From the IMG/VR virus record IMGVR_UViG_3300048838_001106, positions 92,270-156,269 of that record: 64,000 bases of DNA. One strand, written 5' to 3'. A program made the translations under genes and the position numbers. The DNA comes from a virus. This document shows, in pieces, positions 44,516 to 62,993 of this stretch (position 1 is the stretch's first letter; the number at the start of each line of letters is the position of its first letter). The notes under the pieces were generated by a model. That model saw only the letters and a list, made by a program, of their open reading frames with translations. It was not told the DNA's origin and did no database searches.

Positions 44516-45187
44516 TTATTGAGTGAGTTGTGCGTGCAAAGACTGCATGTGCTCGAAGCCTCGTTCGAAACAGTCATTACTCAGTGCTGCGACCTTTTCG
44601 AGACCGTCGTAGACGCCCTCCATGAAGTCTGCTTGCTGTGCGGCCGCTGTTTTCTCTGCGCCAGTCAATACGCCAAGCGCCCAGTCCGCATCATTGTATC
44701 CTGACACAGCAGCTTCTTTGATCATGACACCTTCAGCGTAGGCCGCCGTTTTCTCTGCGCCAGTCAGCGCGTCTAGCGCCCAGTCCGCATCATAGTATCC
44801 TGACACGGCAGCTTCTTTGATCATGGCATCCTCAGCGTAAGCGTTGTACGCGGCTGTTTTGTGTGAGCCTGGCGTTGGCGCGTTCGCTGCAAACTGGTTA
44901 GCGCGGCTAATAAAGCCGTCAAACACAGCGGCGCCGTAAAGCTGCGCTTCTTTGTGCATGCGATGTTCATCAGCAGCGGCCAGATCAGATGCCATTTTTT
45001 CTAGAGAGGCGACGGCCGACTCACTGGCTACTTTTTCTCGAGGCTGATTCAGCTGATTCAGGCTTGCACTCAGCGCGTTGCGCGCCGCATTGACGTCGAC
45101 TTGCTGGGCCGGCTGCGCCGCAGCTGCCGTTTTTTCCACAGGTGGACGATTGAGGTCCGACAAAATTTGCATGATAGATTGAGACAT
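44516..45187 (-). CDS. KxA-dense inner-head / scaffold protein
   Basis: About ten K-x-A sites (EKTA, EKVA, EKMA, HKEA, HKTA, IKEA...); internal duplication. Confidence 0.7.
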   Translation of the reverse strand: MSQSIMQILSDLNRPPVEKTAAAAQPAQQVDVNAARNALSASLNQLNQPREKVASESAVASLEKMASDLAAADEHRMHKEAQLYGAAVFDGFISRANQFAANAPTPGSHKTAAYNAYAEDAMIKEAAVSGYYDADWALDALTGAEKTAAYAEGVMIKEAAVSGYNDADWALGVLTGAEKTAAAQQADFMEGVYDGLEKVAALSNDCFERGFEHMQSLHAQLTQ

Positions 45188-47771: not shown

Positions 47772-48985
47772 TATCTGTCTCCGGTAAGCGACTGGTTCAC
47801 CCTGGCCAGGTTCCCCAACGTAGAATAGTCAGGTCCGTTCGCGCTCATAAGCGCCTCTCGAAGATAGTTTTTCACCGCAAACTCATCAGTAGCGACGTCT
47901 GGCGCGAAGCGTGTCATGGAGCCGTAGGCTTTGATGAGCAGAGCCTTGTCTGCTTCGGTAGCCTGGCTCAGCATGGGGTCGTTGGCCATAACACGTGAAA
48001 ACACTGCTGACTGGGTGAACGTAAGCGCCGCATTGCCAGCAGCATGTCCTGCGCTGCCGATTGCATTACCTACCATTTCACTCACAACTTTGCCAAGACC
48101 TCCACTGCTGCTTCGAACAAACCCAGTCAGGGCCTCATCTTGCAACTTGGTTCGGTCATCGGAGTCTGTTAACCCTTTCTGAATCTTGTAACCCCACACG
48201 TCTGCAGTCGGAGCCATCAGGTCTGCTGTGCCTGCTAGGGCTAGCATAGCCGCACCACCTCCGTACAGATTTCGCTTGTTTAGCTCACTCACTCGCTGAT
48301 AAATTCTACCATCGTTGAGGTTCATGTGTACGTCGTCACCGTGAGCTCGTCGCGCCATATCTAGCAGCTCTTGCCCTTTGTATGCGTTTTCTCCCGGCTT
48401 TAGCTGTCCCAAAAATTTGGGTGCTTGAGCATTAACAGCGTCCGTGATGTCCGCGTCACGCGTCGTCATCATCATTCTCTTGAGAAGGTCGGAGATTGGT
48501 TCCATGCCTCCGCCGACCGCGCGCCCTGCGCCACCAGAAAACAGGCCAGCATGCTTCGAGAAGCTTCTCATATTATTTGTCATCGCAGATTCTCCAGCTG
48601 ACTGTGCATGCGCAGCATGTCGCATAAAGTCTTGTCGTCTGTCGTAGTTTGTAGTGTTGGCCAGGAACGCAACGCCTGGCAGCGTAAAAGATAACAAGCT
48701 TAGGGGTTTAGTGGCTACATTTATGAGCGGATTGGCGACATATTTTTGCAACACCGGTATCTTCCTGGACGGGTCCAGGAAAGCTTCTCCTGCATTACCA
48801 ACCGTGCGGAGGGCTGCGTCGACAGCGGGCAACGCGGCTTCTGCGACATCACCTGCTGCCGCACCGCCGTGCAGCATCGACTTCAGCATGGCGCGATATG
48901 CTACGCCAGAAATACCGCGCCCCTCCATAACAGGACCGATGTCCTGTCTTGCACTGTCCCTCAGCATCTTTCCAAAAGCGCTCAT
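47771..48985 (-). CDS. KxA inner-head protein
   Basis: ATGA overlap at 48982-48985; FSKHAG; hydrophobic segments. Confidence 0.65.
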   Translation of the reverse strand: MSAFGKMLRDSARQDIGPVMEGRGISGVAYRAMLKSMLHGGAAAGDVAEAALPAVDAALRTVGNAGEAFLDPSRKIPVLQKYVANPLINVATKPLSLLSFTLPGVAFLANTTNYDRRQDFMRHAAHAQSAGESAMTNNMRSFSKHAGLFSGGAGRAVGGGMEPISDLLKRMMMTTRDADITDAVNAQAPKFLGQLKPGENAYKGQELLDMARRAHGDDVHMNLNDGRIYQRVSELNKRNLYGGGAAMLALAGTADLMAPTADVWGYKIQKGLTDSDDRTKLQDEALTGFVRSSSGGLGKVVSEMVGNAIGSAGHAAGNAALTFTQSAVFSRVMANDPMLSQATEADKALLIKAYGSMTRFAPDVATDEFAVKNYLREALMSANGPDYSTLGNLARVNQSLTGDR

Positions 48986-49782
48986 TGAACTCGCACCTTC
49001 TGTGCATTGTCGTGAAACCATTGTACAGCAGCGGCAGCTGTCTTAGCCACCTTGCGGGCGTCAATTGCGGCGTTGACCAGCTCGTGCTCCTTGCGCAAAA
49101 TTACATGTTTTACCGAAGCTGTTTTTGTAGTGACCGAATCACCGAACACGTCTTGGAGAACGGGCAGTGCGTCTACACCACGAAGAGCCAGCATATCTGA
49201 CTGCACTTCATCTGCTGGTGCGGCGTCGATGAATGACATTGCATGCTTTACTGCAGCAACTTTCTCTTGATAGCCGATGTAAGCAATCTGAAGTTGTGTG
49301 TGCAGCTCGTCTTCGACCCGTTGCGCGTGATCTATAGCGTAGTGCGCACGCACGCCTGCGTACTTGTCCTGTACGGGGTCTGCCATAGCCACTTTCTCCA
49401 AGGCAGTGTCTGACAGTTCTCTGGCGCGTTCTTTAACGAACTCCCATCGCTCGTCTGGAAGTTCCAGGCGAAGGTCGTAGGATGCTAATTTTTCCTCACC
49501 CTCAGTGTTCAGAGCCCTCGACGGGTCGGCGAATAGCGTGTCACACACGTGCTCAGGGTCCACAATGTCGAACTCTACATACTTGTGCTCAGCCATCTTG
49601 CTGAACAAGGTCAAGTGCGCAGTCACATTGGTAGCCTCCACCAGCCTGCGCGTTTCGTTTACATTCAGCCCAGACTCTTGCGCCATCTTGATAACGCTTT
49701 TCTCCAGCGGAATGCTGGACGACACGAAGTCAGCCACTACGGCTTCGGCAAGTTTTTGATAGTCGCGATCGCTGTAGCTCAT
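48982..49782 (-). CDS. KxA-rich inner-head protein
   Basis: QKLA, IKMA, SKMA, EKLA, EKVA x2, TKTA, AKTA. Confidence 0.65.
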   Translation of the reverse strand: MSYSDRDYQKLAEAVVADFVSSSIPLEKSVIKMAQESGLNVNETRRLVEATNVTAHLTLFSKMAEHKYVEFDIVDPEHVCDTLFADPSRALNTEGEEKLASYDLRLELPDERWEFVKERARELSDTALEKVAMADPVQDKYAGVRAHYAIDHAQRVEDELHTQLQIAYIGYQEKVAAVKHAMSFIDAAPADEVQSDMLALRGVDALPVLQDVFGDSVTTKTASVKHVILRKEHELVNAAIDARKVAKTAAAAVQWFHDNAQKVRVQ

Positions 49783-50519: not shown

Positions 50520-53027
50520 TCACTCGTCTTGAGGCATAGACATACTATTGAGGGATGTTATCGCAGAGCCCATGTCGTGAAACAGTGACTCTAGCTTATC
50601 CCTAATCTCCGAATAGGATCGGTCACCAATCTGCTGCCGAAGTGGTGCTGACTTCATGCGAACTTCCGTGAGCATTCGTCCTACACCATCAAGGGCATCT
50701 CGCAGGGCTGGGGTGTATGTGGACACCGATTGGTCTACGCTGCCGTTAGACGCCATTGAGGCGATAGCAGACGCGTCGAACAACTCAGGGTCCTCCAGTT
50801 CCATGGCGGACTCCATCATGCCAGGCTCCTCTACAGGCATACCGCCAGACATATCCTGCGGCGCGCCGCCCATGCTGGGGTCCATCATGCTGGGGTCCAT
50901 CATCATTTCCATAGGAACAGGCGCGATGGACGGCGGCATTACACCCATTTCAGCAGCGATTTCATGTGCACGCTGGGTCACGGCGTTGATAGCTCCCATC
51001 TGCGTCTGCAGATTCTGCATCTGCATCTGCATCTGCATCTGAATCTGCTCATTCTGCTCCATCAAAGAGTTGGCCACTTCCTGCGCCGCCAGCTCTACCG
51101 GTGATGGAGGTGGCGGCCCCATCATGCTTGGCCCCATCATGCTTGGGTCCATCATGCTTGGGTCCATCATTGACGGATCTTGCATGCTTGGGTCCATCAT
51201 TGACGGATCTTGCATGCTTGGGTCCATCATTGACGGGTCTTGCATGCTTGGGTCCATCATTGACGGGTCTTGCATTTGCGCATTTGGGTTGGCCATCTTA
51301 ACAAGGACCGCTGCTGTTTTCCTATTACGAGGGTCCACTAGGAAGTACTCTGCGACCGACCCTTGCCGAGCAGAAGCCTCCTTTATTGCGGACTCGGCAT
51401 CTCCTACGCGAACGCCGTAAGACGCTGCCAGATGCATAGGCGCAGACGCTCCGCAATGCAGCGCGCCGTTGATGTAGTAGTCGCCAAATCCTGCGCTCTT
51501 AATCTGTATGCGCTCTGCACCGCTGCCACTCAGTGAGTGAAAGAACATCGCGGTTACTGCACGCGAGTCGCGCAAAATCTCGTGATGGTCAATGAACTCT
51601 GTCACCGGCTGAAAAGCCCACGTGTGAGGAATTATGACCTTGAGCACAGCCTCACCCGATCGGTCTGCCGTAGCTGCTCGCTCACGCATCGTCTTGAAGC
51701 CGCTGGTACCGTCAACGATACGTCCGCGTTCATATGACGTGCTGGCCTGTATAATTTTGGGCTCGTTTACAGGACTATCTGGAATCTGGATTAGCCCAAC
51801 AGGCGTGCCATCTATCAGCGTGCCTCGGACATTTCGCGCGCCATTCGCATTGTAAACAGTGTCGATTTTGACAGGCTCGAATGCGTGCACACTAGAGCTG
51901 TTCATGCTTGCGAATACCCCTCGCTGCCCATTGCGTGGCGTGCCAGCAAGCGGCTTTGTGAACATCTCTGTGAGCGCCGTTGGCACATCCTGAAACCCGA
52001 TGGGTGTAACCACAAAGGATTCAATCATGAACGCCAAACCTCCGTCGGCGAACAGTATTACATGGCCACGCTGTGTTCGAGTCTTCTCCCATTTGTACGC
52101 TGGACGAGGCCGCGTGTCTGGCGCATCCTGGCTGGCACGCATCACATCTGTAATGATAAACGCCGGTTTCTTTTCACCGTCTGCCATGTAGACATAGTAG
52201 AATCCTGGAGCTGTGGGCTCAAACAGCTGGATAGGGTGCTCCGTGCTGACCATAATGGGAGCGAAGCGCCGGTCGTCTCTAGCAGCGTATCCTTTTGAAG
52301 TGATGTCTTTGAATGCGGTAGGAGTGTCCGCGCCAAACATAGATTTCAAGACGGTCACAGGCGTTTCAGCCGTGGCGAAAGACAAACTTCCATCGAGATT
52401 AGACGCCCTTTTGGTTCGAGGCTGTGTGTGCAGCGCCTCGTGCAAATCGTTTACGTCGTAAACGCTGAATGCGTACTGCGCGATCTTCGGATACTTAGCC
52501 AGGGTGGCCAGGAATGCGGTTTTCACTCGATGCGGCGCCCCTGCAAGGTATGCAGGCAAAAGCCGGCCGTTGGACGCGTACGAGTATCGGCCCGTAGTAG
52601 GGGGCACAACGATGTTGCGTATGTCCACGTCACTCTGCGAAAACTCTGGCGGGGCTGCACTGTCTCCAATATTGGAGGTGTCCATTCGATCGAGCTCCAC
52701 TAACCAGTCTTCGGTTAGCGGCAGCATCATGTCCAGGCTCCGCACGTACATCGTGTCGAACGGCATCAACTCATTATCAGTCAGGACAACGGGTACGTGC
52801 ACCTCGTCATCCCCGCGCATGATAATGATGCTGCCTGTAGCTGTGTTGCTCTGCGGATCGGCTTCTAGAATTTTGAAAGAGGCCACCTGCTCAGCAAGCT
52901 CTGGCTTCCTTGACAGAAATTGATTCAGCGCCATGTCTTGGAAAGCGCTTTCGAACAGCTCAGTAGGAGTGGCATTGCCATTCGCACCGGGAGCTTCCAT
53001 GAGAGATTGAGTACGGGGTGAAAGCAC
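50520..53027 (-). CDS. large KxA head-associated protein with Met-rich repeats
   Basis: 835 aa; VKTA, TKRA, IKSA, RKTA, VKMA; (MMDPSMQDPS)n. Confidence 0.7.
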   Translation of the reverse strand: MLSPRTQSLMEAPGANGNATPTELFESAFQDMALNQFLSRKPELAEQVASFKILEADPQSNTATGSIIIMRGDDEVHVPVVLTDNELMPFDTMYVRSLDMMLPLTEDWLVELDRMDTSNIGDSAAPPEFSQSDVDIRNIVVPPTTGRYSYASNGRLLPAYLAGAPHRVKTAFLATLAKYPKIAQYAFSVYDVNDLHEALHTQPRTKRASNLDGSLSFATAETPVTVLKSMFGADTPTAFKDITSKGYAARDDRRFAPIMVSTEHPIQLFEPTAPGFYYVYMADGEKKPAFIITDVMRASQDAPDTRPRPAYKWEKTRTQRGHVILFADGGLAFMIESFVVTPIGFQDVPTALTEMFTKPLAGTPRNGQRGVFASMNSSSVHAFEPVKIDTVYNANGARNVRGTLIDGTPVGLIQIPDSPVNEPKIIQASTSYERGRIVDGTSGFKTMRERAATADRSGEAVLKVIIPHTWAFQPVTEFIDHHEILRDSRAVTAMFFHSLSGSGAERIQIKSAGFGDYYINGALHCGASAPMHLAASYGVRVGDAESAIKEASARQGSVAEYFLVDPRNRKTAAVLVKMANPNAQMQDPSMMDPSMQDPSMMDPSMQDPSMMDPSMQDPSMMDPSMMDPSMMGPSMMGPPPPSPVELAAQEVANSLMEQNEQIQMQMQMQMQNLQTQMGAINAVTQRAHEIAAEMGVMPPSIAPVPMEMMMDPSMMDPSMGGAPQDMSGGMPVEEPGMMESAMELEDPELFDASAIASMASNGSVDQSVSTYTPALRDALDGVGRMLTEVRMKSAPLRQQIGDRSYSEIRDKLESLFHDMGSAITSLNSMSMPQDE
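51120..51275 (-). repeat. 15/30-bp tandem repeat encoding MDPSM/QDPSM
   Basis: CATGCTTGGGTCCATCATTGACGGRTCTTG units visible. Confidence 0.85.
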
Positions 53028-53563: not shown

Positions 53564-54625
53564 TTATCGCCTGTGAAGGTTGGACAGGTTGCCGAGCACG
53601 GAACTTACCGACTGTTGTGGAGGCGCATAAGCGTGAGCCACTTTCTGCAGGAAGTTTCCAAGCTCGTGAGGCTCGAGCGACATGCAATGCTTGACGGCAG
53701 CTACCTTCTGATCCATCGGCATGGTTTCAGGGAGATAGGGCCCGACATCCTCCGCGGTCTGATTAAACCGGTCATTCCATCGAGCGGAGGCGCTCTTCGT
53801 TGCTTCAACTATAGAGTTAGAGCTGGCACCGCCAACACCTGTCGGGGCAAGTGGGTGTGGCTGCTCTGTGCCAATTCGGGACGCCTGCGGCTCTTTGATA
53901 TTGGCATTCCCCTGTCCGACCACTGCGTAGCCTTCTGGGCGATGCGCATCAAGTACAGCGGCAGCATCCTGGCTTCCTGCTACTGTGTTAGGAGGCGTCT
54001 CGCCAGCGCCTGTGATGACAGGGTTCTCAGCAAGTTTGTTCAACAACCTGTTGAAAGCAGCGGACTTGGAAGCCTCGACCACCGAGTTAGTTGCCGCACC
54101 ACCTACGCCTGTTGGAGCAAGTGGGTGTGGCTGTTCGGTTCCAATGCGCGCAGCTTGTGGCTCTTTGAAGTTAGCATTTCCCTGTCCGACCACTGCGTAG
54201 CCTTCTGGGCGATGCGCATCAAGTACAGCGGCAGCATCCGGGCTGGCACTCAACGTATTTGGTGTTACAGACCCGCCGGTGCCCTGCACGAGGCCTCCGC
54301 CAGCAGATTCCATGGCAAGTTTGTAGGTGAGGTGCACCAAGTCACCGTACGCATCTGAGATAGAACCCGAGATGGAAGCACCACGAGCGTTTGACGCAAA
54401 CTTGCCAGTAGCGCGCAATCGCTGGTCATAGTCTTGAATGGCGGCTGCGATCTTGATGCACTCGTCATGCGGCACAGCCTGTGATGCCGGCTCGGATTGC
54501 AGAGTCCCCGCAGCATAGGCACACGCTTCTTTAAGCAAGCCTGCTGTTGGGATGTTGGTAATGCCGGCTTGTTGCAGGTATTCACCCACACCGCGTGCGT
54601 ATGCTTGTCGGGTAACGTTTGACAT
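53564..54625 (-). CDS. KxA protein with leader-like N-terminus and internal duplication
   Basis: YARGVGEYLQQAG; LKEA, IKIA, YKLA, NKLA, QKVA; duplicated DAAAVLDAHRPEGYAVVGQGNAN..EPQA.RIGTEQPHPLAPTGVGG; promoter TTGACC-N16-TAAACT (54674-54701). Confidence 0.7.
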   Translation of the reverse strand: MSNVTRQAYARGVGEYLQQAGITNIPTAGLLKEACAYAAGTLQSEPASQAVPHDECIKIAAAIQDYDQRLRATGKFASNARGASISGSISDAYGDLVHLTYKLAMESAGGGLVQGTGGSVTPNTLSASPDAAAVLDAHRPEGYAVVGQGNANFKEPQAARIGTEQPHPLAPTGVGGAATNSVVEASKSAAFNRLLNKLAENPVITGAGETPPNTVAGSQDAAAVLDAHRPEGYAVVGQGNANIKEPQASRIGTEQPHPLAPTGVGGASSNSIVEATKSASARWNDRFNQTAEDVGPYLPETMPMDQKVAAVKHCMSLEPHELGNFLQKVAHAYAPPQQSVSSVLGNLSNLHRR

Positions 54626-54713
54626 TCTTCCTTCTCCTGTTTTGGTGTCACACACCTTTTGTACATGCACCGTAGTTTATGTGCAACTGTTGTTTGGTCA
54701 AGCTATAATTGGT

Positions 54714-57641
54714 CTAGCCGTAGTGCTGCGTTGGCGGGCGGCCGTAGCCTGACTGTTGTTGCTGTTGCTGCTGATAGTATCTGTGCTTTGCCGCTTCGGC
54801 TGCGCGCGCCGCATTGCTATAATATTGCATGTACTTGTAATTGTCCAAGCTGGAGTTAGCCGCGTTGTGTAAGCGCGCACCAACTGGAGCTGGACTGGCC
54901 GGCACGTAGTCTGGGTCTAGCTTTTCTCCGATCGCCCTGCCAGCACCTATGACAGGAGTGGCAATAGCCCAGCCGCCAAGGAAGCCCGCGGGACTCCCGA
55001 GGCCCCAGCCAGCTGTCTCACCAATGGCAGATCCGACGTTTCCAAGACGGGACTCGCCCTCGCCAGCAGGTGTTGTCGCAGCGGTGTACACCGATGCCGC
55101 AGGCAATCCGATGGTGAAAGACTTCTGCAGAGCCTCACTGCCGACCGCAGCGCCTAGTCCCATGTACCTCTCACCTGTGGTGTTAGCATGCACCCTGTAT
55201 TTCTTGCCGTTACGCTCTACGACTTTCGTTTTGTTGAACTCACGCCACGCGCGGGCTGTATCTGGATCTACCGCAAAGTCTCCAGTCAAAAGACCTCCCT
55301 TGCCTATAACGCCACCATGCTGATAACGCTGCTTCAGGACCTGCAGAGGCGACTGTCCGATGGACATATCCTGGAATACACCTTTTCCAATTCGATACCC
55401 TGTAGTGTTCTTGTCGTTCCACGCCTTGAACTTCTCTGGTGTGATGTGCTGAGACAGCCCTGGTATGTGCGCATCCAAAGCTGCAGCATCGTACTTGTGG
55501 TCCGGCGTAGGGACACCCTGCAAGGAGTTGCTCATCCTGTCCCACAAACCGGGCTTCCGCATGCCTTGAATGCTTTTCAGTGCGTTGGCGCCCTCATCTG
55601 TGACAACGCCTCCCCGCGTCACACCAGCCGATTCCCAGTCCACGCCTCCCATACCCTTGCCCATACGGCGAGCAAGGTGTGCTGATTGGTCGATGCCGCC
55701 CTGGGTCCAGCCCTTAGTTGAGATGTGTTTTAGAGGAGCGCTGTCTAACGCGCCGGGTGCGCCAAACAGAAATTTCTTAGCCATAGGTATTAACTTGCCA
55801 GCGGACGCCAGCTTTTCCAGCGCTGACTCGTACTCATCTTGCGCACTGGCATACTTGCCGTCTTGTCCTGTACCGAATGGCGTACCCATAGCAAACGCCG
55901 GCACAGGACTGGTAGACGCCACATTTGTCGTGTGTCCAAAGCCGGCTCCATCTACAAGTGTCTTTCGAAGATACCGATGCGACAATCGAGACATCCAATC
56001 GTCACTCAATAGCGGCGTTTGGATGATGGACTTCATAATGGGTTCGAACTCTGGCGACTTTGTGGACACCTCAATATCTTTGATTCCTGCTTTTTCCAGG
56101 TCTTCTATAACTCTGGATGTGACGCGCGTGCCCACGGAGTAATGCATCGCCGGCGCACCGAGAATCATGTTCTTAGCTTTGGACACCGGCACGCGCTCTG
56201 TATGCTTGCCAAACGCTTTCTGCATGTCTTTGAAAGCCACCACGTCGCCGCGGATGAACGTGTTTGTTGGGTCCTTGTCCACACGTACATAGTTCATCGA
56301 GCTGCGCGCCAGCAGTTCTGCGTGACGTCTGTCCAGATCCACGCCCTGGCGACCGTACAGATCTGATATTGAGTCGGCCATGTACTGTCGTCCGGCGCCG
56401 ACACCCTTCAATCTGACCACATCATTGGGCATTGGGGTGCCATCAGACAGTGCATCCCCCGCCTCAACTCGGTCGTTGACCTTCACGATTGGTTGCAGGC
56501 CTGGCGGAACGTAGTAGTTCTTTGCGTCTACTTTGATGTTCCACCCGCCTTGCGGTGCTTTTGTCACGCTAGATACCGTGCCATCCATTTCCGAAATGGA
56601 GGCCTTGTCCATAAATGACTTTGGAACCTCGGTCAGCGTTCTAAAACCATCTAGGCCGCTCAGAGCACGGCTCTTGCCACCGGCCATGCGTACGCCGTGC
56701 TTTGCGTTTAGAGCGAACTGCGTGAGCGGCTCGGTCAACGCCTGCGCAGACCTGACGCCTACGTTTGACCCTATGGGATATGGATTGCCCCACTCGTTTA
56801 GTCCCATGCATTTCTGACATATGCCGTCGTCTGCTTCGCATGTTGCTGGGCTTCGGACCATAATGCGGTACAGTTTCGATTTTTTAAGATCCGACAACAC
56901 GTGTGGCGTTATCAGGTCGCCAGCCATGTGAGATGCTTCAGCTCTAGCTAGATACCGGTCCACAGCCTGGGCACCAATGGGCAGCATGATTCCGCCTCTG
57001 GTTTTGCAGTCTGGGATGGTGATGACCAAATTTTCCATGTTTGACACGACGACTTTGGCCACAGCACCGGGCTCAACAACGCTGCCCGTCGAAGCGATAG
57101 CGTTGCGACGAGACTCGGCACCAGTTACCCACGCGTCGGCTGCGCTTAGCCCCTGGGAGTAAGACTTGGTAATCAACCACGGCACCTCCTGGCCGTCGGT
57201 TGACGACGCTACAACCGGAGACGCCACTGTTTTCATCAGCTGCGCCATTGAACCGCGCCCACCAGAGCGTGCCATCAGGGTCATGTCAGACTTATGGTGC
57301 GGCACGGTTGCCAAAACCTTGTCCTGGGTCTCCAGCAGAATCTTTCTCTTGTCGGCATCCGTCGTTGCTTTTTTCATCTGCGACAGCGCGCTTTTCAGGA
57401 TTGGATCACGCCTGGCGTAATCCGGCGCGATGTCGTCCAGTCCTACACTGATGCCCTCCAGAGTTGAAATATCATCTCCGACTTTTTTAACATCCTGTAT
57501 CGCACGCGCATATCCTTGTGGGTCTTTCTTAGCGTACGCAGACAGTGCCTCGGATAGCGCCTTCTTGGTGACAGGACCTGTTAAGCGCATGTCCCCCGGA
57601 AGAGCGTCGTTGAGCAGCATTTGGCCGAATGTTTCTGTCAT
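54714..57641 (-). CDS. rpoC: RNA polymerase beta'-C subunit with ~380-aa C-terminal extension
   Basis: GISVGLDD, SG.RGS..QL, bridge-helix region, VRSP.TC....ICQKC.G, VG..SAQ...EP.TQ trigger loop, D.RH.EL..R; the homology ends at KYA (~55850). Confidence 0.9.
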   Translation of the reverse strand: MTETFGQMLLNDALPGDMRLTGPVTKKALSEALSAYAKKDPQGYARAIQDVKKVGDDISTLEGISVGLDDIAPDYARRDPILKSALSQMKKATTDADKRKILLETQDKVLATVPHHKSDMTLMARSGGRGSMAQLMKTVASPVVASSTDGQEVPWLITKSYSQGLSAADAWVTGAESRRNAIASTGSVVEPGAVAKVVVSNMENLVITIPDCKTRGGIMLPIGAQAVDRYLARAEASHMAGDLITPHVLSDLKKSKLYRIMVRSPATCEADDGICQKCMGLNEWGNPYPIGSNVGVRSAQALTEPLTQFALNAKHGVRMAGGKSRALSGLDGFRTLTEVPKSFMDKASISEMDGTVSSVTKAPQGGWNIKVDAKNYYVPPGLQPIVKVNDRVEAGDALSDGTPMPNDVVRLKGVGAGRQYMADSISDLYGRQGVDLDRRHAELLARSSMNYVRVDKDPTNTFIRGDVVAFKDMQKAFGKHTERVPVSKAKNMILGAPAMHYSVGTRVTSRVIEDLEKAGIKDIEVSTKSPEFEPIMKSIIQTPLLSDDWMSRLSHRYLRKTLVDGAGFGHTTNVASTSPVPAFAMGTPFGTGQDGKYASAQDEYESALEKLASAGKLIPMAKKFLFGAPGALDSAPLKHISTKGWTQGGIDQSAHLARRMGKGMGGVDWESAGVTRGGVVTDEGANALKSIQGMRKPGLWDRMSNSLQGVPTPDHKYDAAALDAHIPGLSQHITPEKFKAWNDKNTTGYRIGKGVFQDMSIGQSPLQVLKQRYQHGGVIGKGGLLTGDFAVDPDTARAWREFNKTKVVERNGKKYRVHANTTGERYMGLGAAVGSEALQKSFTIGLPAASVYTAATTPAGEGESRLGNVGSAIGETAGWGLGSPAGFLGGWAIATPVIGAGRAIGEKLDPDYVPASPAPVGARLHNAANSSLDNYKYMQYYSNAARAAEAAKHRYYQQQQQQQSGYGRPPTQHYG

Positions 57642-57645
57642 TTAG

Positions 57646-58137
57646 TTACCCTACGCCAATGCCGCGCTGGAATCGTGTCTTGTTTAGATTGCCTATCTGG
57701 TGTGCTGTAGTTCCAGCACCGGCCACGTCAGCCGTGTGACCTAGCGCGCGTCCCACAGGTTTAACGCCAGGCGCGTCCAGCACCTTCTTTGCACTACCGG
57801 TAGCGTTACCCACACGCTGCATTGCTTTAGGCGCTACTTTAGACAGCAACCTGCCTCCGGCAGCCAGTGCACCACGCGCGGCCGCGGCAGCAGCTACACC
57901 AACCGCTGCCTCTTTCTCGGCCTGGTTGTACGCTATCAGCAGGTTTCGCATAGCAGCTGCCTTTACGGAGGGTTCCCCCATGTTGATGCCCATGCGTCCT
58001 GCCGCGTCCCCACCCTCCAACGAGGTTGGAGGCCCCCACAACACGGGGTCTACCTTGCTCATCTCTCCAACCATCTTGATGGTGTCTTCCTGCTGCTTGA
58101 TAGCACTGATCAAGTCATCAACACTTTGAATAGCCAT
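57646..58137 (-). CDS. KxA protein between the RNAP genes
   Basis: VKAAA and EKEAA, followed by a basic amphipathic segment. Confidence 0.6.
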   Translation of the reverse strand: MAIQSVDDLISAIKQQEDTIKMVGEMSKVDPVLWGPPTSLEGGDAAGRMGINMGEPSVKAAAMRNLLIAYNQAEKEAAVGVAAAAAARGALAAGGRLLSKVAPKAMQRVGNATGSAKKVLDAPGVKPVGRALGHTADVAGAGTTAHQIGNLNKTRFQRGIGVG

Positions 58138-58141
58138 GCGA

Positions 58142-61100
58142 TTACCCTATTTCTACCGGAGTTGTTAGTTGTAGTTCCCCGCGTTTGTACGCGGCCATTG
58201 CTTCATCTTTCGTCTTAAATTTACGCACAGGACCTGTTGCTTGTCCAGAGGTGGCCATATATGCACCGATGAGGGCCTCGTGGGCAGGGAACACCATCAA
58301 CTTGTCTTTGGACGTGTCTCCAAAGATTAGATTAGACAACGTCATACCCTGAGCTTCTTTGACCGCGGCGTCGCCCACCGGCACATGTATTTGCATGGCA
58401 TCACCGTCATAGTCTGCGTTCATACCAGCTTCAGCGAATGGGTTTAGCCGGATTGTCTTGCCAGGCACCAGAGATGGATACGCTGCTACCATGTTGAATC
58501 GGTGCAGCGTCGGAGCCCGGTTGAGAATTGCAGGGCGTTGCTGGATCTCTATGTCTAGCACACGCTTGGCAGCCATAGTTCTGTTCTTGACTTGCTGTCG
58601 CGCCTCTACTGCGCTGTAGCCATTTCGGACCATGCCTTTGACAATGAATGGCTCATACATCTTCCAGGCCATGTCTTCTGGCATGCCTACCTGGTCGAGA
58701 GCAAGTGTGTGGTCGGGAGCGATTGTTCCTCGCCCAGACAGGTCTTGACGACGTCGCATTAGCTTGGATTGAAAGTAGCCTCCTTTCGGACTTCCGGTAC
58801 CCGTAATCTGGGTCAGGTGTCCTTTCACCCCGCGACCTTGATTTTGCGGACTAACGGCGTCTCGAGTACCAAACAGCGCACCTACTGCGTCATGCATGTG
58901 TTGTCTTTGCTTAGCCATTTCTTCTGGGAATCTAAGCTCCTCCGGAATAGCTCGCATAGATTCATCGGCCAGCATCAAGTCACGGTACAGGTAGTTGGCG
59001 TCGGCCACTAGCGTAGTCCCGTCGGCATTGGGAACGATAGGACGCACTACAGGAGGCGTCACGGGTATCTTGCTGAGAACGTAAGCATCTCCAGCTCTAA
59101 GTCCTTGTTTTCGCAGAGCCTTGGCGTACTTCAGTTGCTTCACAGCTGTGTTGAGTGGCGTGCCTGATAGCTTGTTTATTTGCTGTGATAACTCTCGCTC
59201 GTACGCAACAAGGTCTATGGCGTTCAGCCGATCGCGTATCTCAGCCGCGCCTTTCTCATTTCGCAGCTTAGTGAATTCCTTGCCTGACATACCTAGCAAG
59301 TACCTGGCCGGGTCTTCAAACATGGGGTTTACGATAGGCTCAAACAGCTCGATCTTGGAGTATTTCGTGCCCTCCAGCCCGCCTGTGCTTACCGGATCAA
59401 ATAGGCCATCTTTTTCTGGAGCTATTTGAGGGATGCCTTTGACTGTCTGAGGCTTAACAAGCAATGCGTTCTTGATAGACTTCGACGCCAGCGCGTCAAT
59501 ATCTTTGTCCGTCAGGGGAGCTAACGTCATCATCGTGCCCTCCTTCTTGACGTTGACACCTGCACCCCGAAGGGTGTGCGTGAACTTGTCGAATGCGAAA
59601 TTATCAGTGGGTGTCTGCACCGGAAGACCTAGCTGAACTCTGCGCCAGTATTCGTCGTTTCGTTGGCCTTTCACTGCCGCAGTTTCTTGCAATATGTTGC
59701 GCGCGTTATGTGCAATTAGTGCATTGAACTCCATCTTGGCTATGGACTTAGCACCTTCCTCTCCTCCTTTACTTGGCTGCAGATTCGCGTCGTAGCCCGG
59801 TCCAACGCCGCGTGCAGCATAGTTTGTGTCGGTAGACTTAAACATCTTCAGAGTGAATTGGCGTCCGACGTGGATGTTTGGAATGTGCTTCCCACTGATG
59901 GGGTCGTACACAGTCTCTTTGTCCTTGATGCCGTGCTGCTTCAACAAGCCCTTGACCCACTCGACGTTATCCTGATCCTTGAATTGATCAATTTGAATAG
60001 GCTTTCCGGTCTTCTCAACGACCTTGCCGAGCGAGGTCTCCAGGATTTGGGAAGGATTGATGCGCGAGATGATGCCGGCTGACGTCATCAACACGTCGAT
60101 AGGCCTGCCCTTCTCGTCCTTGACCATCTGGTCGTCAGGGATGATCTTTGATACAACGCCTTTGTTGCCGGCTCGTCCTGCTATCTTGTCTCCAACTTGG
60201 ATAGGCTCTTCGGTGCGGATAGTCACCATCACCATCGATGGCGTCACGGCTACGTCCTGCACGGTTCCTGGATAGTCGTGGTCCCAGGTAACACCTGAGT
60301 CGCGGAAAGGTTTGATGAGGGACTTGTGCAGATTGCCTAACATTTGGGCCTTTGCTGTGGGCGCGGTTTTTTGCAGCCCGGCAATCAGCAAGTCCCCGTG
60401 GTTTACCGTGGCCCCTTTTCTAATGACTCCTCTTTCATCCAGCGCCTCGTACTGTGCTCTGGAATACCGCACGCCAAAATGAATTTGATGCTTCTTCTTG
60501 TCGACGCTGGTGGAGGCGTCAAGCCCTATAGACTCCTTGTACATGTGCAAAGATGTGAGTTTCTTCGCCGCGGATTCTGAGATGACAACAGCGTCGTTGG
60601 AGTTGTAGCCGTAGTAGGGCATATAGGCGACGAGCAAGTTCTTACCCAGAGCAAGAGAGCCATCGACGGTGAAGTTGTTGTCTCCTAAGACCTGGCCTTT
60701 TGTGACTTTGTCTCCGGCTTTCACTTTGATGTCATCGTGCATGTACGTCTTAGACATCAGCGGGAAGTAGTTGGATTTTGGAACTCTGACCAGGCCGTCT
60801 TTGTCTTCTTTTGATGCGTACTTGTGCATCTTCGCAGGGTTCGACGGGTCACTTGGGCGGTAGCCCATATCTTTATACATCTGCACAAGCGTATTCACAT
60901 CTGTGCTTCCATCTTTGTAGGGCCGCGCCGTCAGTGTAATACTCCTTCCTTTGTAGTCTTTCTCGATGCGCTGCATCAAATCTCTGGCAATACCCTGCCT
61001 GCGGTACTCCGGCTTCACCCACACGCCAGAAATAAAAACAGAGCCGTCGTCTTTGGGCTCAACAGATGCGTACGCCACGTTGATACCGCCAGAGTGTACG

Positions 61101-62911
61101 TCGTACCTTTTTAGTGTGTTCTTTGTGTCTCCAGGTTTACGGTCTGGCGCCATGCTGTAGCGCAGCTCAGGTGCGGCCTTCTTCAACGCATAGGGTCTGA
61201 TGTACACGTAGTCGTCATCGACGCGCTCAACAGTGCCGTCAATCGGGGACACCGGCACGGTCATGTTCCCAAAGATGTTCTCCACAGACCTGTCCCCAGA
61301 CCAGCTCTTGACCTGGACGAACGGCTGCTCTCGTTCTTTGAGCGGCAAAGCTTGCGTCTGAAACTTTGCGCCCATGATGTTTCGGTTGCCCTGCGCAGAG
61401 TTCAAAAAAGGCACGAGGTTCGTCGTAGGAGAGTACATCGAAGCTGCCGACGGAATAACGTAGTCAACTTCGGTCACACTTACGCTCTGGACTTTTCCGT
61501 CTTTCATGGCGCTGATTTTTCTTCTCCCCGACATGTCTTGCTGAGGAAAGGCAATCACTTTCGATGACAATTCGTCGGCGCGCTTGAACTCCACTTTGTT
61601 GGTCTTCATATTCTTCATTGGCGCATACATATTGCCTGAGCTGTCGCGCACTGTGTGCATCGCTGTGCGGATATCGACACCGGCTTTCCCAGACTCCGGC
61701 GTACGGATCGGGTCCAACACTCCCAGGTGCGAGTGATGCACATCGCGCGCTTCGTCTGGAACAGCTAGCATCGAAGAAATTCCGCCTTCACCAAGCGACG
61801 TTACTTTCACGGAACTGTCGATAATCTCCATGGGGTTAATCTGCATTGGCGTAGCAGCCAGCGCGCTCGTGGTGATGAATGAAGTAATCGACTTTGTGAA
61901 CGGAGAGTTCGGCAGTATGCCAGATATTTTTGGTGCATCACCTGCTCTTTTGAGCTTCGTGCCGACCTTGCGCTTCAGGTCGCGCATCGCATCCTTCTCG
62001 ATGCGCTCCTGCATAAACGTCTCAGCAGTGTGCAGTGTCTTAAACGCTGTGGAATCTCGGTCGTCCTGTTCTTCTTTCCCATTGAACACGTGTAACAATT
62101 TCTGGCTTGCACGAAGCAACCCGAGAGGATTTACGCTGGCCATGCTGATGCCGAGCGTGATTTGCGTAACCTGAGGGTCGAGCACAGTCGCGTCGTACGT
62201 GGATCGAATAGCTTCGACCATGTATTCCCTCGTCGGATTAGCGACCTTAGAGTACGGCGGCGCAAGCTGCTTATACAGTGCTGCTAGCGCGCGGTCTTCT
62301 GCGCCCATACTATGCTGCTTGTTGATCTGCGTGACCTCACGTCCCCAGAACTGCACAACTTTGGTCTCTGGAAGTCCCAATGCAAGTAAGACCGGGAACA
62401 ATGGGATACGCGTCGTTGCGTATTCCATGAAGAACACGCCTTTCTCCGGGTCCATTGACAGACGGAAGTTCTTGCCCTTTGCCAGGTTGAACGCCGCCTC
62501 AAGCTGGCCGTTGTCCCGCTGTCGTGTGTAGACACCTGGCTTAATACGAACCTGATTGGAGATAGAATAGTCGTTTCCACCAACCACGAACGTATGCCTC
62601 TCGGTCAGATAGGGGATATGTACCAGGGTTCGGGTAGACCTATCAATAACTTTACCCGTCGCCTTGTCCTTGAGCACGACTGTGCCTTTCAAGGCCTCGG
62701 TCAGTGTTCGTCCTTCAAGCAGTGCTTGCTTCTGCTCAGTCGGAGAGTACAGCGCTGGAGATGGGTCGAACTTCTCTACCTCCATGATGTACTTGTCACT
62801 GTCGATCTTGAAAGACCGCTGGATGCCCTCCATCACGTGTTCGCGTATCACGTCACGCCGGTCTTCGGCTCTAGACATCAATTCGTACAGTCTCGGTTCT
62901 TTCTCAGCCAT
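58142..62911 (-). CDS. rpoBC: RNA polymerase beta + beta'-N fusion with inserted GNAT domain
   Basis: beta motifs RDVH.SH.G..DP..TPE, R..MG...Q.QA.PL, GYN..DA, GDK..GR.GNKGVVS; beta' motifs GLFD, R.D.SGR..I, NR.PTLHR, NADYDGDAM..HVP; ATG at 62911. Confidence 0.93.
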   Translation of the reverse strand: MAEKEPRLYELMSRAEDRRDVIREHVMEGIQRSFKIDSDKYIMEVEKFDPSPALYSPTEQKQALLEGRTLTEALKGTVVLKDKATGKVIDRSTRTLVHIPYLTERHTFVVGGNDYSISNQVRIKPGVYTRQRDNGQLEAAFNLAKGKNFRLSMDPEKGVFFMEYATTRIPLFPVLLALGLPETKVVQFWGREVTQINKQHSMGAEDRALAALYKQLAPPYSKVANPTREYMVEAIRSTYDATVLDPQVTQITLGISMASVNPLGLLRASQKLLHVFNGKEEQDDRDSTAFKTLHTAETFMQERIEKDAMRDLKRKVGTKLKRAGDAPKISGILPNSPFTKSITSFITTSALAATPMQINPMEIIDSSVKVTSLGEGGISSMLAVPDEARDVHHSHLGVLDPIRTPESGKAGVDIRTAMHTVRDSSGNMYAPMKNMKTNKVEFKRADELSSKVIAFPQQDMSGRRKISAMKDGKVQSVSVTEVDYVIPSAASMYSPTTNLVPFLNSAQGNRNIMGAKFQTQALPLKEREQPFVQVKSWSGDRSVENIFGNMTVPVSPIDGTVERVDDDYVYIRPYALKKAAPELRYSMAPDRKPGDTKNTLKRYDVHSGGINVAYASVEPKDDGSVFISGVWVKPEYRRQGIARDLMQRIEKDYKGRSITLTARPYKDGSTDVNTLVQMYKDMGYRPSDPSNPAKMHKYASKEDKDGLVRVPKSNYFPLMSKTYMHDDIKVKAGDKVTKGQVLGDNNFTVDGSLALGKNLLVAYMPYYGYNSNDAVVISESAAKKLTSLHMYKESIGLDASTSVDKKKHQIHFGVRYSRAQYEALDERGVIRKGATVNHGDLLIAGLQKTAPTAKAQMLGNLHKSLIKPFRDSGVTWDHDYPGTVQDVAVTPSMVMVTIRTEEPIQVGDKIAGRAGNKGVVSKIIPDDQMVKDEKGRPIDVLMTSAGIISRINPSQILETSLGKVVEKTGKPIQIDQFKDQDNVEWVKGLLKQHGIKDKETVYDPISGKHIPNIHVGRQFTLKMFKSTDTNYAARGVGPGYDANLQPSKGGEEGAKSIAKMEFNALIAHNARNILQETAAVKGQRNDEYWRRVQLGLPVQTPTDNFAFDKFTHTLRGAGVNVKKEGTMMTLAPLTDKDIDALASKSIKNALLVKPQTVKGIPQIAPEKDGLFDPVSTGGLEGTKYSKIELFEPIVNPMFEDPARYLLGMSGKEFTKLRNEKGAAEIRDRLNAIDLVAYERELSQQINKLSGTPLNTAVKQLKYAKALRKQGLRAGDAYVLSKIPVTPPVVRPIVPNADGTTLVADANYLYRDLMLADESMRAIPEELRFPEEMAKQRQHMHDAVGALFGTRDAVSPQNQGRGVKGHLTQITGTGSPKGGYFQSKLMRRRQDLSGRGTIAPDHTLALDQVGMPEDMAWKMYEPFIVKGMVRNGYSAVEARQQVKNRTMAAKRVLDIEIQQRPAILNRAPTLHRFNMVAAYPSLVPGKTIRLNPFAEAGMNADYDGDAMQIHVPVGDAAVKEAQGMTLSNLIFGDTSKDKLMVFPAHEALIGAYMATSGQATGPVRKFKTKDEAMAAYKRGELQLTTPVEIG
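60815..61183 (-). other. GNAT acetyltransferase domain inserted in the RNAP beta region
   Basis: ISGVWVKPEYRRQGIARDLM (motif A), LVQMYKDMGY (motif B); flanked by KKAA and KYAS. Confidence 0.8.
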
Positions 62912-62993
62912 GCTCTCACCGCCTGTTCTAATCGTTGGGAGTATACGCCTGGTTGGAGGAAATCGCCACCCCATCTGAGAGTCAAAAAATGGA

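What the first reader, a model, noticed from the sequence alone, without database searches (positions are those of the whole stretch)
54714..62911. Unusually split multisubunit RNAP (beta+beta'-N fused, beta'-C separate) with altered catalytic motifs, embedded in the virion operon
Seen: one ~1590-aa ORF holds all of beta plus the beta' half with the catalytic loop. The bridge helix and trigger loop are in a second ORF, and a KxA gene lies between them. Deviations: NADYDGD for NADFDGD; GYNSND for GYNFED; EPLTQFALNAKH for EPGTQLTMRTFH; the beta' N-terminal Cys4 zinc-binding domain is missing (GLFDPVSTGGLEGTKYSKIEL). No alpha, omega or sigma gene is recognisable in the window. Established: phiKZ/AR9 RNAPs split both beta and beta'; crAss-like virion RNAPs are single chains; cyanobacteria split beta' at a similar point but do not fuse it to beta. 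Inference: this is a virion-packaged RNAP that stays closer to cellular enzymes in sequence.
Basis: partly seen in the sequence, partly recalled or inferred. Interest (0 to 1): 0.8.

Follow-up and report, generated by a model that had tools for sequence, protein, structure and literature searches.

The report
Two-chain phage RNA polymerase with cargo
This uncultured 156-kb phage builds its only RNA polymerase from two unusual chains (all of beta joined to the front of beta-prime, and the back of beta-prime alone), a layout shared by hundreds of related phages; here it also carries an acetyltransferase and a tail module set off by probable head-protease cut sites, so it probably travels inside the virus particle.

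Summary
Window 58142-62911(-) encodes beta fused directly to beta'-N (1589 aa). Window 54714-57641(-) encodes beta'-C (975 aa). A 163-aa gene lies between them. All quoted motifs are present.

The layout is not unique. More than 120 metagenomic proteins share it, as do Salmonella phage Arash gp206/gp216 and Vibrio phages D69/D148/D181. This scan has already reported the family on other DNA. The "deviant" motifs are clade traits.

About 40 related phages encode a single beta-beta' chain. On a bacteria-rooted tree the split forms are one clade nested among them (AU p = 7e-9). The order was therefore fusion first, then one fission.

The record has no alpha, no omega and no second beta. A sigma-like domain lies outside the window.

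Specific to this window:
- A minimal GNAT domain sits in a hypervariable slot of beta.
- Beta'-C has a 365-aa helical extension with no known fold.

Both are bounded by K-x-A-[AS] motifs. These motifs are 13-fold denser in the slot than in the rest of these proteins. They are also enriched in head-module proteins here and in Arash.

Best reading: a minimal, sigma-using RNA polymerase that is packed into the capsid, with protease-trimmed add-ons. Neither packaging nor cleavage has been shown. I found no paper that describes this architecture.

The parts
58142..62911 (-). Chain 1 (1589 aa): beta fused to beta'-N. It holds the beta catalytic barrel and the beta' barrel with the Asp triad.
   Evidence: Pfam Rpb2_3, Rpb2_6, Rpb1_1 and Rpb1_2. 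PDB hits to bacterial beta (8e-69) and beta' (1.5e-47). Start at 62911.
59534..62911 (-). Beta portion (ORF residues 22-1147). It lacks E. coli SI1 and SI2. Rif cluster I at 61787-61879 has D516, H526 and S531 replaced by M, S and T.
   Evidence: BLASTP and MAFFT mapping on Salmonella RpoB.
60809..61183 (-). Minimal GNAT acetyltransferase domain (residues 598-722). It is inserted in a loop of beta (E. coli about 735-771) and bounded by K-K-A-A at 598 and K-Y-A-S at 718.
   Evidence: Pfam Acetyltransf_7 1.4e-8 and Acetyltransf_1 5.5e-8. AlphaFold pLDDT 86.6. Foldseek top hits are all GNATs at probability 1.00. Motifs.
60593..60610 (-). GYNSND, the counterpart of beta GYNFED. E813 is N and D814 is kept.
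   Evidence: N-S/T-N-D in nearly all 121 aligned relatives. Arash and the single-chain forms keep E-D.
58142..59533 (-). Beta'-N portion (residues 1148-1610). There is no zinc ribbon. The clamp helices and NADYDGD (58400-58420) are present. It ends at about E. coli beta' 550.
57646..58137 (-). 163-aa Ala/Gly-rich gene between the two polymerase genes. Its N-terminal ~58 residues are conserved and are followed by K-A-A-A.
   Evidence: No Pfam or PHROG family. Homologues of 148-219 aa lie at the same place in L004, L015 and L016, with K-x-A-A at the same position.
55812..57641 (-). Chain 2 core (residues 1-610): beta'-C. It holds the bridge helix region, the trigger loop (56697-56732) and the four-Cys second zinc site (56808-57008). 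SI3 is absent.
   Evidence: Pfam Rpb1_4 and Rpb1_5. Mapping to beta' 720-936 and 1154-1288. 30% identical to Arash gp216 over 611 aligned positions.
54714..55811 (-). C-terminal extension of chain 2 (residues 611-975). It is helical, has a Gly-rich hairpin and ends in a poly-Q tail. G-K-Y-A-S (596) and E-K-L-A-S (610) precede it.
   Evidence: Absent from Arash gp216. 50 homologues: some are C-termini of ~1000-aa beta'-C proteins, others are free-standing ~240-aa proteins. AlphaFold pLDDT 85. No significant fold match.

Best explanation
These three genes encode the phage's only RNA polymerase. It is a stripped-down bacterial-type enzyme made of two chains: beta joined to beta'-N, and beta'-C.

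Inferred from established knowledge: the covalent beta-beta' joint replaces the alpha-dimer assembly platform. Alpha and omega are therefore dispensable.

Inferred from sequence: promoter recognition probably uses the phage's own sigma-like protein, because the flap tip and the clamp helices that dock sigma are kept.

The genes open the head-morphogenesis block, between the portal gene and the protease and capsid genes. The enzyme is most likely loaded into the prohead and delivered with the DNA to start rifampicin-insensitive early transcription. New copies, or the host enzyme, would serve later in infection.

The GNAT domain in beta and the 365-aa extension on beta'-C are add-on modules. They sit in or at positions that vary between relatives and are bounded by K-x-A-[AS] motifs. 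These motifs are probably the cut sites of the prohead protease. If so, the modules are trimmed or released inside the capsid and the polymerase is left as a nicked but assembled complex.

Shown here: identity, architecture, family membership and the fusion-then-fission history. Inferred: packaging, sigma use, cleavage and the role of the GNAT domain.
For: Identity and architecture.

Only one polymerase set, with no alpha or omega in a record rated 95% complete.

Sigma-like domain: the C-terminus of a 632-aa protein at genome 44959-46857 is 30.6% identical to Arash gp10. It matches RpoS at 4e-5 and Sigma70_r3 at 9.5e-5.

Family: the best 120 of the homologues found are 1323-2350 aa, and all but one carry both Rpb2_6 and Rpb1_2. 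Arash gp206 is a 1525-aa fused protein encoded next to the portal gene, and gp216 is beta'-C.

History:
- Single-chain forms of about 2020-2100 aa exist.
- Their sequence runs unbroken across our split point.
- The split forms are one clade (SH-aLRT 100) nested among the single-chain forms.
- Forcing the single-chain forms into one clade is rejected, with delta lnL 115 and p-AU 7e-9.

Packaging:
- The order portal, polymerase, head genes is conserved.
- In the Arash virion proteome, gp206 had the most spectra, gp216 was fifth, and gp10 had 100% coverage (PMC10585845).

Cleavage code:
- K-x-A-[ASG] is enriched in head-module proteins here, with z up to 10.7, and in Arash gp220, gp223 and gp225, with z about 6.5.
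- In 44 relatives with inserts of 100 aa or more, the motif density is 1.04 per 100 aa in the slot against 0.08 elsewhere. The observed mean is 1.95 against 0.30 in shuffles. The last motif lies within 25 aa of the slot's end in 38 of 43.
- The K-x-A-A position in the small gene is conserved among homologues that are 30-39% identical.

Rifampicin pocket residues are replaced.
Against: - No experiment shows packaging, cleavage or activity for this phage.
- The Arash particle preparation yielded 116 proteins, including ribonucleotide reductase, so carry-over from the lysate is possible.
- Within the two polymerase chains the motif count is not above chance overall (z 1.7 and 0.0). Only the placement of the motifs is telling.
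- Arash and D69, which have no insert, carry almost no motifs in this chain.
- The protease assignment rests on a weak PHROG hit (2e-6) and on homology to Arash gp222. There is no Pfam or PDB match.
- Sigma70_r2 was not detected, and the Sigma70_r3 score is below Pfam's cut-off.
- With only one polymerase gene set, the same enzyme may be needed all through infection.
- A pyrophosphatase insert in relatives would also make sense as a permanent part of the enzyme, working in cis.
Confidence: 0.7

Rival explanations
1. The enzyme is a purely intracellular (non-virion) polymerase. Its place in the head-gene block only reflects late co-expression or history, and host RNA polymerase starts the infection.
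For: The record holds only one polymerase set, whereas phiKZ-type phages that package a polymerase also encode a second one (PMC7598289). The Arash particle proteome lists 116 proteins, including metabolic enzymes, so it may be contaminated.
Against: - gp206 gave the most spectra of all Arash proteins, more than the capsid protein.
- The position next to the portal gene is conserved across relatives that are 35-77% identical.
- Protease-type motifs sit exactly at the module boundaries of both chains.
- The sigma homologue was also found in Arash particles.
Confidence: 0.2
2. The GNAT domain and the beta'-C extension are permanent, uncut parts of the polymerase and work in cis. They might acetylate a transcription partner or anchor the enzyme. 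On this view K-x-A-[AS] is just a common flexible-linker sequence in this lineage.
For: - Many relatives carry an inorganic pyrophosphatase domain in the same slot (PF18823, E down to 1e-53). That activity would directly help RNA synthesis.
- AR9-type virion polymerases carry a fused HD domain (PMC7598289).
- Cutting on both sides of the insert would break beta.
Against: - The same four-residue motif is strongly enriched in scaffold-like head proteins next to the protease gene, both here and in Arash.
- It separates tandem inserted domains from one another, for example in P0004, P0019 and P0090.
- It follows N-terminal leaders in free-standing homologues of the extension.
- From my own knowledge: E. 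coli beta tolerates engineered breaks and still assembles.
Confidence: 0.3
3. The genes are a recent capture of, or contamination by, a bacterial rpoBC operon, or the split is an assembly or frameshift artefact.
For: The best matches among solved structures are bacterial polymerases.
Against: - Identity to bacterial beta and beta' is only 25-32% in the conserved blocks.
- The phage proteins form their own clade apart from four bacteria and two bacterial-like fusions (SH-aLRT 98).
- The same split point occurs in Arash, L004, L015 and L016.
- The flanking genes are portal and head genes.
Confidence: 0.02

Closest known systems
Salmonella phage Arash gp206 + gp216 (with sigma-like gp10; OQ632216.1, PMC10585845), and Vibrio phages D69/D148/D181
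   Same: - Beta fused to beta'-N in one gene next to the portal gene, with beta'-C as a separate gene.
- The split falls at the same residue.
- No zinc ribbon.
- Tyr in the Asp-triad motif.
- A sigma-like partner.
- K-x-A-[ASG]-rich head proteins.
- They belong to the same clade on the tree.
   Different: - Only 35-37% identical.
- Arash has no insert in the beta slot, and its beta'-C is 606 aa with no extension.
- Nine genes, most on the opposite strand, separate the two halves in Arash.
- Arash keeps E-D in the beta motif.
- The Arash paper annotates the genes simply as beta subunits and does not mention the fusion.
Virion and non-virion multisubunit RNA polymerases of phiKZ- and AR9-like jumbo phages (PMC7598289)
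   Same: - Phage-encoded beta/beta' enzymes without alpha or omega.
- Beta' is split just after its catalytic barrel.
- One version is packaged in the virion.
- Enzymatic domains can be fused to subunits, such as the HD domain in AR9.
- Infection is resistant to rifampicin.
   Different: - In those phages beta is split into two or three pieces and is never fused to beta'.
- They encode two paralogous enzyme sets.
- They have no sigma.
- They are much more divergent from bacteria. Here one set exists and a sigma-like domain is present. The phiKZ-type YerA41 hit is weaker (23.8% identity over 26% of the query).
mReC phages (Weinheimer & Aylward 2020, PMC7481178)
   Same: Uncultured tailed phages whose beta and beta' still align readily with cellular enzymes and branch outside Bacteria.
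   Different: Their supplementary table lists beta (about 920-1560 aa) and beta' (about 900-1370 aa) as two separate proteins, often two sets per contig. The text mentions fusion only for crAss-like phages. I did not test the relationship of the two groups on a tree.
Natural rpoB-rpoC fusions of Helicobacter and Wolbachia, and the engineered tethered E. coli enzyme (from my own knowledge, not tested here)
   Same: The beta C-terminus is joined head-to-tail to the beta' N-terminus with little or no linker, and the enzyme stays active.
   Different: Those fusions keep beta' whole and still use alpha and omega. Here beta' is broken again at about residue 550, and alpha and omega are absent.
Cyanobacterial and plastid gamma/beta' (rpoC1/rpoC2) split
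   Same: Beta' is divided after the catalytic barrel and before the bridge helix.
   Different: The phage chain ends at about gamma residue 558 of 624, roughly 70 residues earlier. In those systems beta is a separate protein.
Polyvalent proteins and protease-processed capsid cargo (Iyer et al. 2017, as cited in PMC7824862; T4 internal proteins and Alt, from my own knowledge)
   Same: Swappable enzyme modules such as GNAT are carried into the capsid on a larger protein and separated by short repeated motifs. The cargo is meant to act in the newly infected cell.
   Different: Here the carrier is a catalytic subunit of the RNA polymerase and the module sits inside a surface loop. The putative code is K-x-A-[AS], not the x-Glu sites of the T4 and phiKZ proteases.

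Membership tests
Bacterial-type multisubunit RNA polymerase (beta/beta' two-barrel enzyme) | Beta catalytic barrel with the GDK...GNKG lysine motif | tested here: met
   Rpb2_6 at 3e-53. The GDKIAGRAGNKG motif aligns with E. coli 1060-1080.
Bacterial-type multisubunit RNA polymerase (beta/beta' two-barrel enzyme) | Beta' barrel with the Asp triad (NADFDGD) | tested here: met
   NADYDGD at residues 1519-1525. All three Asp are kept, and F is replaced by Y.
Bacterial-type multisubunit RNA polymerase (beta/beta' two-barrel enzyme) | Bridge helix and trigger loop with the catalytic His | tested here: met
   Rpb1_5 at 1.4e-13. Residues 118-315 of beta'-C align with beta' 720-936. EPLTQFALNAKH keeps the final His, while R933 is replaced by N.
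Bacterial-type multisubunit RNA polymerase (beta/beta' two-barrel enzyme) | Alpha dimer and omega subunits | tested here: not met
   PF01000 and PF01192 find nothing at E <= 1 in the whole record. The same searches succeed in 14 of 14 control genomes.
Bacterial-type multisubunit RNA polymerase (beta/beta' two-barrel enzyme) | Beta' N-terminal zinc ribbon and second zinc site | tested here: not met
   The ribbon is deleted and chain 1 has no Cys. The second site is kept: C212, C268, C275 and C278 of beta'-C.
Bacterial-type multisubunit RNA polymerase (beta/beta' two-barrel enzyme) | Sigma-70-family initiation factor | tested here: inconclusive
   A sigma-like C-terminal domain lies outside the window. 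It matches RpoS at 4e-5 and Sigma70_r3 at 22.9 bits (below the cut-off of 25.3), and is 30.6% identical to Arash gp10. Sigma70_r2 was not found.
Arash-like fused-and-split phage polymerase family | Beta and beta'-N in one chain, beta'-C separate, split at the same residue | tested here: met
   The chains end ...TPVEIG here and ...TPIKIG in Arash.
Arash-like fused-and-split phage polymerase family | Falls inside the clade of split forms on a tree | tested here: met
   The 26 split forms make one clade with SH-aLRT 100. The nearest relative is P0004, 79% identical over the kept columns.
Arash-like fused-and-split phage polymerase family | Genes lie between the portal gene and the head genes | tested here: met
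   The portal gene is at genome 1726-3450(-) and is adjacent across the record ends. The capsid gene is at window 41417-42322. L004, L015 and L016 have the same order.
phiKZ/AR9-type phage multisubunit polymerases | Beta split into two or three polypeptides; two paralogous sets; no sigma | tested here: not met
   Beta is whole and fused to beta'-N. The record has one Rpb2_6 locus. A sigma-like domain is present.
phiKZ/AR9-type phage multisubunit polymerases | Enzyme present in purified virions | not testable with these tools
   Known only by homology to Arash gp206 and gp216, which were detected in particles.
mReC polymerases | Separate full-length beta and beta' genes | tested here: not met
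   The supplementary table lists two proteins per set. Here beta is fused to beta'-N.
GNAT acetyltransferase superfamily (the insert) | GNAT fold | tested here: met
   The model has pLDDT 86.6. 193 PDB matches reach E <= 0.001, and all those listed are GNATs, including the small forms PanZ (TM 0.70) and AcrVA5 (TM 0.68 on the target).
GNAT acetyltransferase superfamily (the insert) | Acetyl-CoA motif R/Q-x-x-G-x-G/A and a conserved Tyr in helix 4 | tested here: met
   R-R-Q-G-I-A at 657-662. The R, the G and the later Tyr are invariant in the six insert-bearing relatives.
GNAT acetyltransferase superfamily (the insert) | Acetyl transfer to a defined substrate | not testable with these tools

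The most novel reading that the evidence does not exclude
The loop of beta at E. coli residues ~735-771 is a general cargo slot. In this phage lineage the RNA polymerase doubles as the vehicle that carries swappable effector enzymes into the capsid. Examples are GNAT here and pyrophosphatase, P-loop and ParB-like modules in relatives. The prohead protease cuts them free at K-x-A-[AS] sites, which would be a new specificity for this kind of protease. What remains is a nicked, three- or four-fragment polymerase that stays assembled and active when injected. The beta'-C extension would be a second piece of cargo carried in the same way.
Probability: 0.4. Interest if true: 0.85.

Novelty: new variant of a known kind. 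Interest (0 to 1): 0.7.

Why it matters
This may be the simplest bacterial-type RNA polymerase yet seen that still aligns well with cellular enzymes. It has two chains, no alpha, no omega and no zinc ribbon, lacks the E. coli SI1-SI3 insertions, is nearly free of cysteine, and appears to use a sigma.

That makes an old question testable: what is the minimal assembly of a beta/beta' enzyme, and can a covalent beta-beta' joint replace the alpha platform? A cultured relative, phage Arash, is available for the tests.

The fusion-then-fission history is a clean natural case of subunit boundaries being redrawn.

If the K-x-A code and the cargo slot hold up, they reveal two things. One is a new protease specificity. 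The other is a new way for phages to deliver enzymes such as acetyltransferases into a host at the first moment of infection.

Tried and rejected
- PHROGs on ten downstream genes gave only one weak protease-like hit. Pfam on eight neighbours gave nothing above cut-off.
- The protease-like protein has no relative among solved structures by sequence.
- Fold of the beta'-C extension: Foldseek against PDB had a best E of 0.27, and against BFVD 0.36. VIA-align had a best Z of 6.4, on membrane helical hairpins, which is below the tool's noise level for helical models. Its Gly-rich stretch peaks at a Kyte-Doolittle value of 1.15 and is not a confident membrane helix.
- No paralogue of the extension exists in the phage's own genome.
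- Sigma70_r2 is not found in the genome.
- No tRNA genes lie in the window.
- I checked whether the single-chain forms carry K-x-A at the position of the split. They do not, so the gene split does not mirror a protease site.
- mReC supplementary tables show that those phages have separate beta and beta' genes, not this layout.
- Literature searches for a fused beta-beta' phage polymerase found no description. The moraphage paper and the jumbo-phage overview do not cover it.
- I did not run complex prediction. Halves of a split gene pass by likeness to solved structures, and I do not claim that the small middle protein binds the enzyme.
Full report
WHAT IS THERE

The window is the last 64 kb of a 156,269-bp IMG/VR virus record that CheckV rates 95% complete. 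Three consecutive minus-strand ORFs fill the finding:
- 58142-62974, 1610 aa from the first ATG.
- 57646-58137, 163 aa.
- 54714-57641, 975 aa.

For the first ORF, the ATG at 62911 follows a GGTGAG ribosome-binding site and is where homology to relatives begins.

Pfam places Rpb2_3 and Rpb2_6 (beta) and Rpb1_1 and Rpb1_2 (beta') in the first protein. It places Rpb1_4 and Rpb1_5 in the third. Solved bacterial beta chains match at up to 8e-69, and beta' chains at about 1e-47.

MAPPING ON E. COLI NUMBERING

I used Salmonella RpoB and RpoC from a bacterial contig present in the phage collection.
- Beta is complete except for SI1 and SI2.
- Its C-terminus runs without a linker into the beta' N-terminus.
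- The beta' zinc ribbon is deleted. Chain 1 has no cysteine at all.
- Chain 1 stops at about beta' 550, some 85 residues after the Asp triad.
- Chain 2 begins at the very next residue of beta', lacks SI3 and keeps the four-Cys second zinc site.
- The split lies about 70 residues before the end of cyanobacterial gamma, so it is close to that split but not the same.
- The flap tip and the clamp helices, which dock sigma in bacteria, are present.
- The main rifampicin contacts D516, H526 and S531 are M, S and T.

NOT A ONE-OFF

A protein search returned 477 relatives at E <= 1e-10 among the 8000 candidates scored. The best 120 are 1323-2350 aa, and all but one carry both beta and beta' domains. 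They come from contigs of up to 197 kb.

In the phage collection the nearest records are Salmonella phage Arash and Vibrio phages D69, D148 and D181, at 35-37% identity. Arash gp206 is a 1525-aa fused protein encoded two genes after the portal gene, and gp216 is a 606-aa beta'-C. D69 has the same layout.

NADYDGD occurs in 73 of 121 aligned relatives, the zinc ribbon is missing in all, and 62 of 121 have no cysteine. The N-S-N-D form of the beta motif marks the sub-clade that holds this window. Arash and the single-chain forms keep E-D.

This scan has already reported the family on other genomes. I re-tested those claims rather than relying on them.

HISTORY

A search with beta'-C restricted to longer proteins found about 40 proteins of 2020-2100 aa that hold beta and all of beta' in a single chain. 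They come from phage-sized contigs. Their sequence is continuous across our split point, so the fission lost nothing.

I built a maximum-likelihood tree of 68 sequences and 1349 columns, with the insert slot removed. It was rooted on four bacteria plus two bacterial-like fusions.
- The phage proteins form one clade (SH-aLRT 98).
- All 26 split forms make one clade (SH-aLRT 100).
- That clade is nested among the single-chain lineages.
- Forcing the single-chain forms together costs 115 log-likelihood units, with p-AU 7e-9.

The likely order is therefore separate genes, then a beta-beta' fusion, then a single fission at about beta' 550.

Caveats: few bacteria were sampled, the search was a quick one under LG+G4, and I named the groups for the AU test after seeing the tree, although they are defined by architecture.

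In D148 and D181 a homing-endonuclease gene interrupts the fused gene. Several relatives carry inteins. Mobile elements are thus a plausible cause of such breaks.

PARTNERS

The whole record has only one beta locus, no alpha and no omega. The control searches found these families in all 14 control genomes.

No sigma lies in the window. However, a 632-aa protein at genome 44959-46857 ends in a domain that:
- is 30.6% identical to Arash gp10, which is annotated as a sigma factor,
- matches RpoS structures at 4e-5, and
- matches Sigma70_r3 at 9.5e-5, below Pfam's cut-off.

Region 2 was not detected. I call it sigma-like.

CONTEXT

The record's ends join the portal gene (genome 1726-3450, 30.6% identical to Arash gp204, 60-71% to closer relatives) to the polymerase genes. 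Downstream on the same strand lie homologues of Arash structural genes gp218, gp219, gp220 and gp222, and the capsid gene (window 41417-42322, 45% identical to gp226).

Three closer relatives (L004, L015, L016) show the same order: portal, small genes, fused chain, a 148-219-aa gene, a beta'-C of 972-1107 aa, then head genes.

In the Arash virion proteome gp206 gave the most spectra of any protein, gp216 ranked fifth, and gp10 had full coverage. That preparation listed 116 proteins, including metabolic enzymes, so carry-over cannot be excluded.

WHAT IS SPECIAL IN THIS WINDOW

1. The GNAT insert. Residues 598-722 of chain 1 replace about 36 residues of E. coli beta (735-771) with a minimal GNAT domain.
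   - Pfam scores it at 1.4e-8.
   - The AlphaFold model has pLDDT 86.6.
   - All listed Foldseek matches are GNATs at probability 1.00. They include the small forms PanZ and the anti-CRISPR AcrVA5.
   - The acetyl-CoA motif and a helix-4 Tyr are invariant in the six relatives that share the insert.
   - The insert is sporadic. P0004 (77% identical) and P0005 have it, while L004 (65% identical) does not.

2. The slot itself. It is hypervariable, from 35 to 369 aa. In other members it holds an inorganic pyrophosphatase domain (E down to 1e-53), other GNATs, a P-loop module or unknown domains, sometimes two in tandem.

3. The beta'-C extension. Chain 2 has a 365-aa C-terminal extension that Arash lacks.
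   - It has 50 homologues. Some form the tails of ~1000-aa beta'-C proteins. Others are free-standing ~240-aa proteins with short N-terminal leaders.
   - It models confidently as a helical domain (pLDDT 85) with no significant match in PDB or BFVD.

THE K-x-A-[ASG] MOTIF

- In this genome it is far above shuffle expectation in several head-module proteins. For example there are 9 against 0.8 in the 223-aa protein at window 44516-45187, and z reaches 10.7 elsewhere.
- The same holds for Arash gp220, gp223 and gp225, around the protease homologue gp222 (z about 6.5).
- In the polymerase chains the overall count is unremarkable, but the placement is not. K598 and K718 bracket the GNAT domain, and K596 and K610 sit at the junction between core and extension.
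- Across 44 relatives with slot inserts of 100 aa or more:
  - The motif occurs 1.04 times per 100 aa in the slot against 0.08 in the rest of the same proteins.
  - The observed mean is 1.95 against 0.30 in shuffles.
  - It separates tandem domains.
  - It lies within 25 aa of the slot's end in 38 of 43.
- The small middle gene keeps K-x-A-A at the same position in homologues that are only 30-39% identical.

The simplest reading is that this is the recognition site of the prohead protease. If so, these proteins are inside the prohead when the protease acts. That is independent, sequence-based support for packaging. No cleavage has been measured.

COMPARISON WITH KNOWN SYSTEMS

- phiKZ/AR9 polymerases also lack alpha and omega and split beta' after its barrel. 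But they split beta, come in two sets and have no sigma.
- mReC phages list beta and beta' as separate proteins.
- crAss-like and P23-45 virion polymerases are single chains too diverged to align.
- Helicobacter-type rpoBC fusions keep beta' whole (my own knowledge).
- Protease-delimited modules recall polyvalent proteins.

I found no paper that describes this architecture. The Arash paper does not remark on it.

VERDICT

This is a member of a large, real and still undescribed phage polymerase family. It is a new variant of the known kind "phage multisubunit RNA polymerase". The window adds a GNAT cargo domain and a beta'-C extension bounded by probable protease sites.

Noticed in passing
genome 44959-46857 (-), outside the window (L013:960-2858): A 632-aa protein whose last ~240 residues are sigma-like (RpoS 4e-5; 30.6% identical to Arash gp10). 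Its first ~390 residues have no Pfam family.
   Followed up: partly
window 44516-45187, 48982-49782, 50520-53027, 53564-54670; genome 22366-23382: K-x-A-[ASG] is strongly over-represented in these head-module proteins (z 4.5 to 10.7). This is the pattern expected of scaffold or internal proteins that are chopped by a prohead protease. Arash gp220, gp223 and gp225 show the same enrichment.
   Followed up: partly
Vibrio phages D181 and D148 (OZ196140.1, OZ196545.1), hits H3 and H4: A homing-endonuclease gene and several small ORFs interrupt the fused beta-beta'N gene, which is intact in the sister phage D69. This looks like a further gene-in-pieces event in the same polymerase.
   Followed up: no
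relatives P0041, P0054, P0123, P0138, P0150, P0160 and others: Inteins (LAGLIDADG and Hint domains) sit inside the polymerase genes. In one relative an intein sits within the Asp-triad motif itself. One protein reaches 3990 aa.
   Followed up: no
relatives P0033, P0037, P0048, P0053, P0111 and many others, same beta slot: An inorganic pyrophosphatase domain (PF18823, E down to 1e-53) is the commonest insert in the slot. P0020, P0032 and P0090 carry a module with a D-G-R-H-R motif, and P0036 a P-loop module.
   Followed up: partly
window 54714-54773: Beta'-C ends in a run of seven Gln followed by a Gly/Tyr/Pro-rich tail. Its purpose is unknown.
   Followed up: no
protein P0171 (2081 aa, metagenomic): A distant single-chain beta-beta' protein whose precomputed Pfam list also includes the alpha-subunit domain PF01000. 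It may be a three-way fusion.
   Followed up: no
mReC supplementary table (PMC7481178, file 5): Several mReC contigs list two polymerase sets ('a' and 'b'), each with a beta and a beta' protein. This recalls the virion and non-virion pairs of jumbo phages.
   Followed up: no
genome 3393-5642 (+), next to the portal gene: An SNF2-type helicase gene (PF00176 and PF00271 in the homologues of relatives L015 and L016) is conserved divergently beside the portal-polymerase block. This recalls the helicase linked to phiKZ-type polymerase genes.
   Followed up: no
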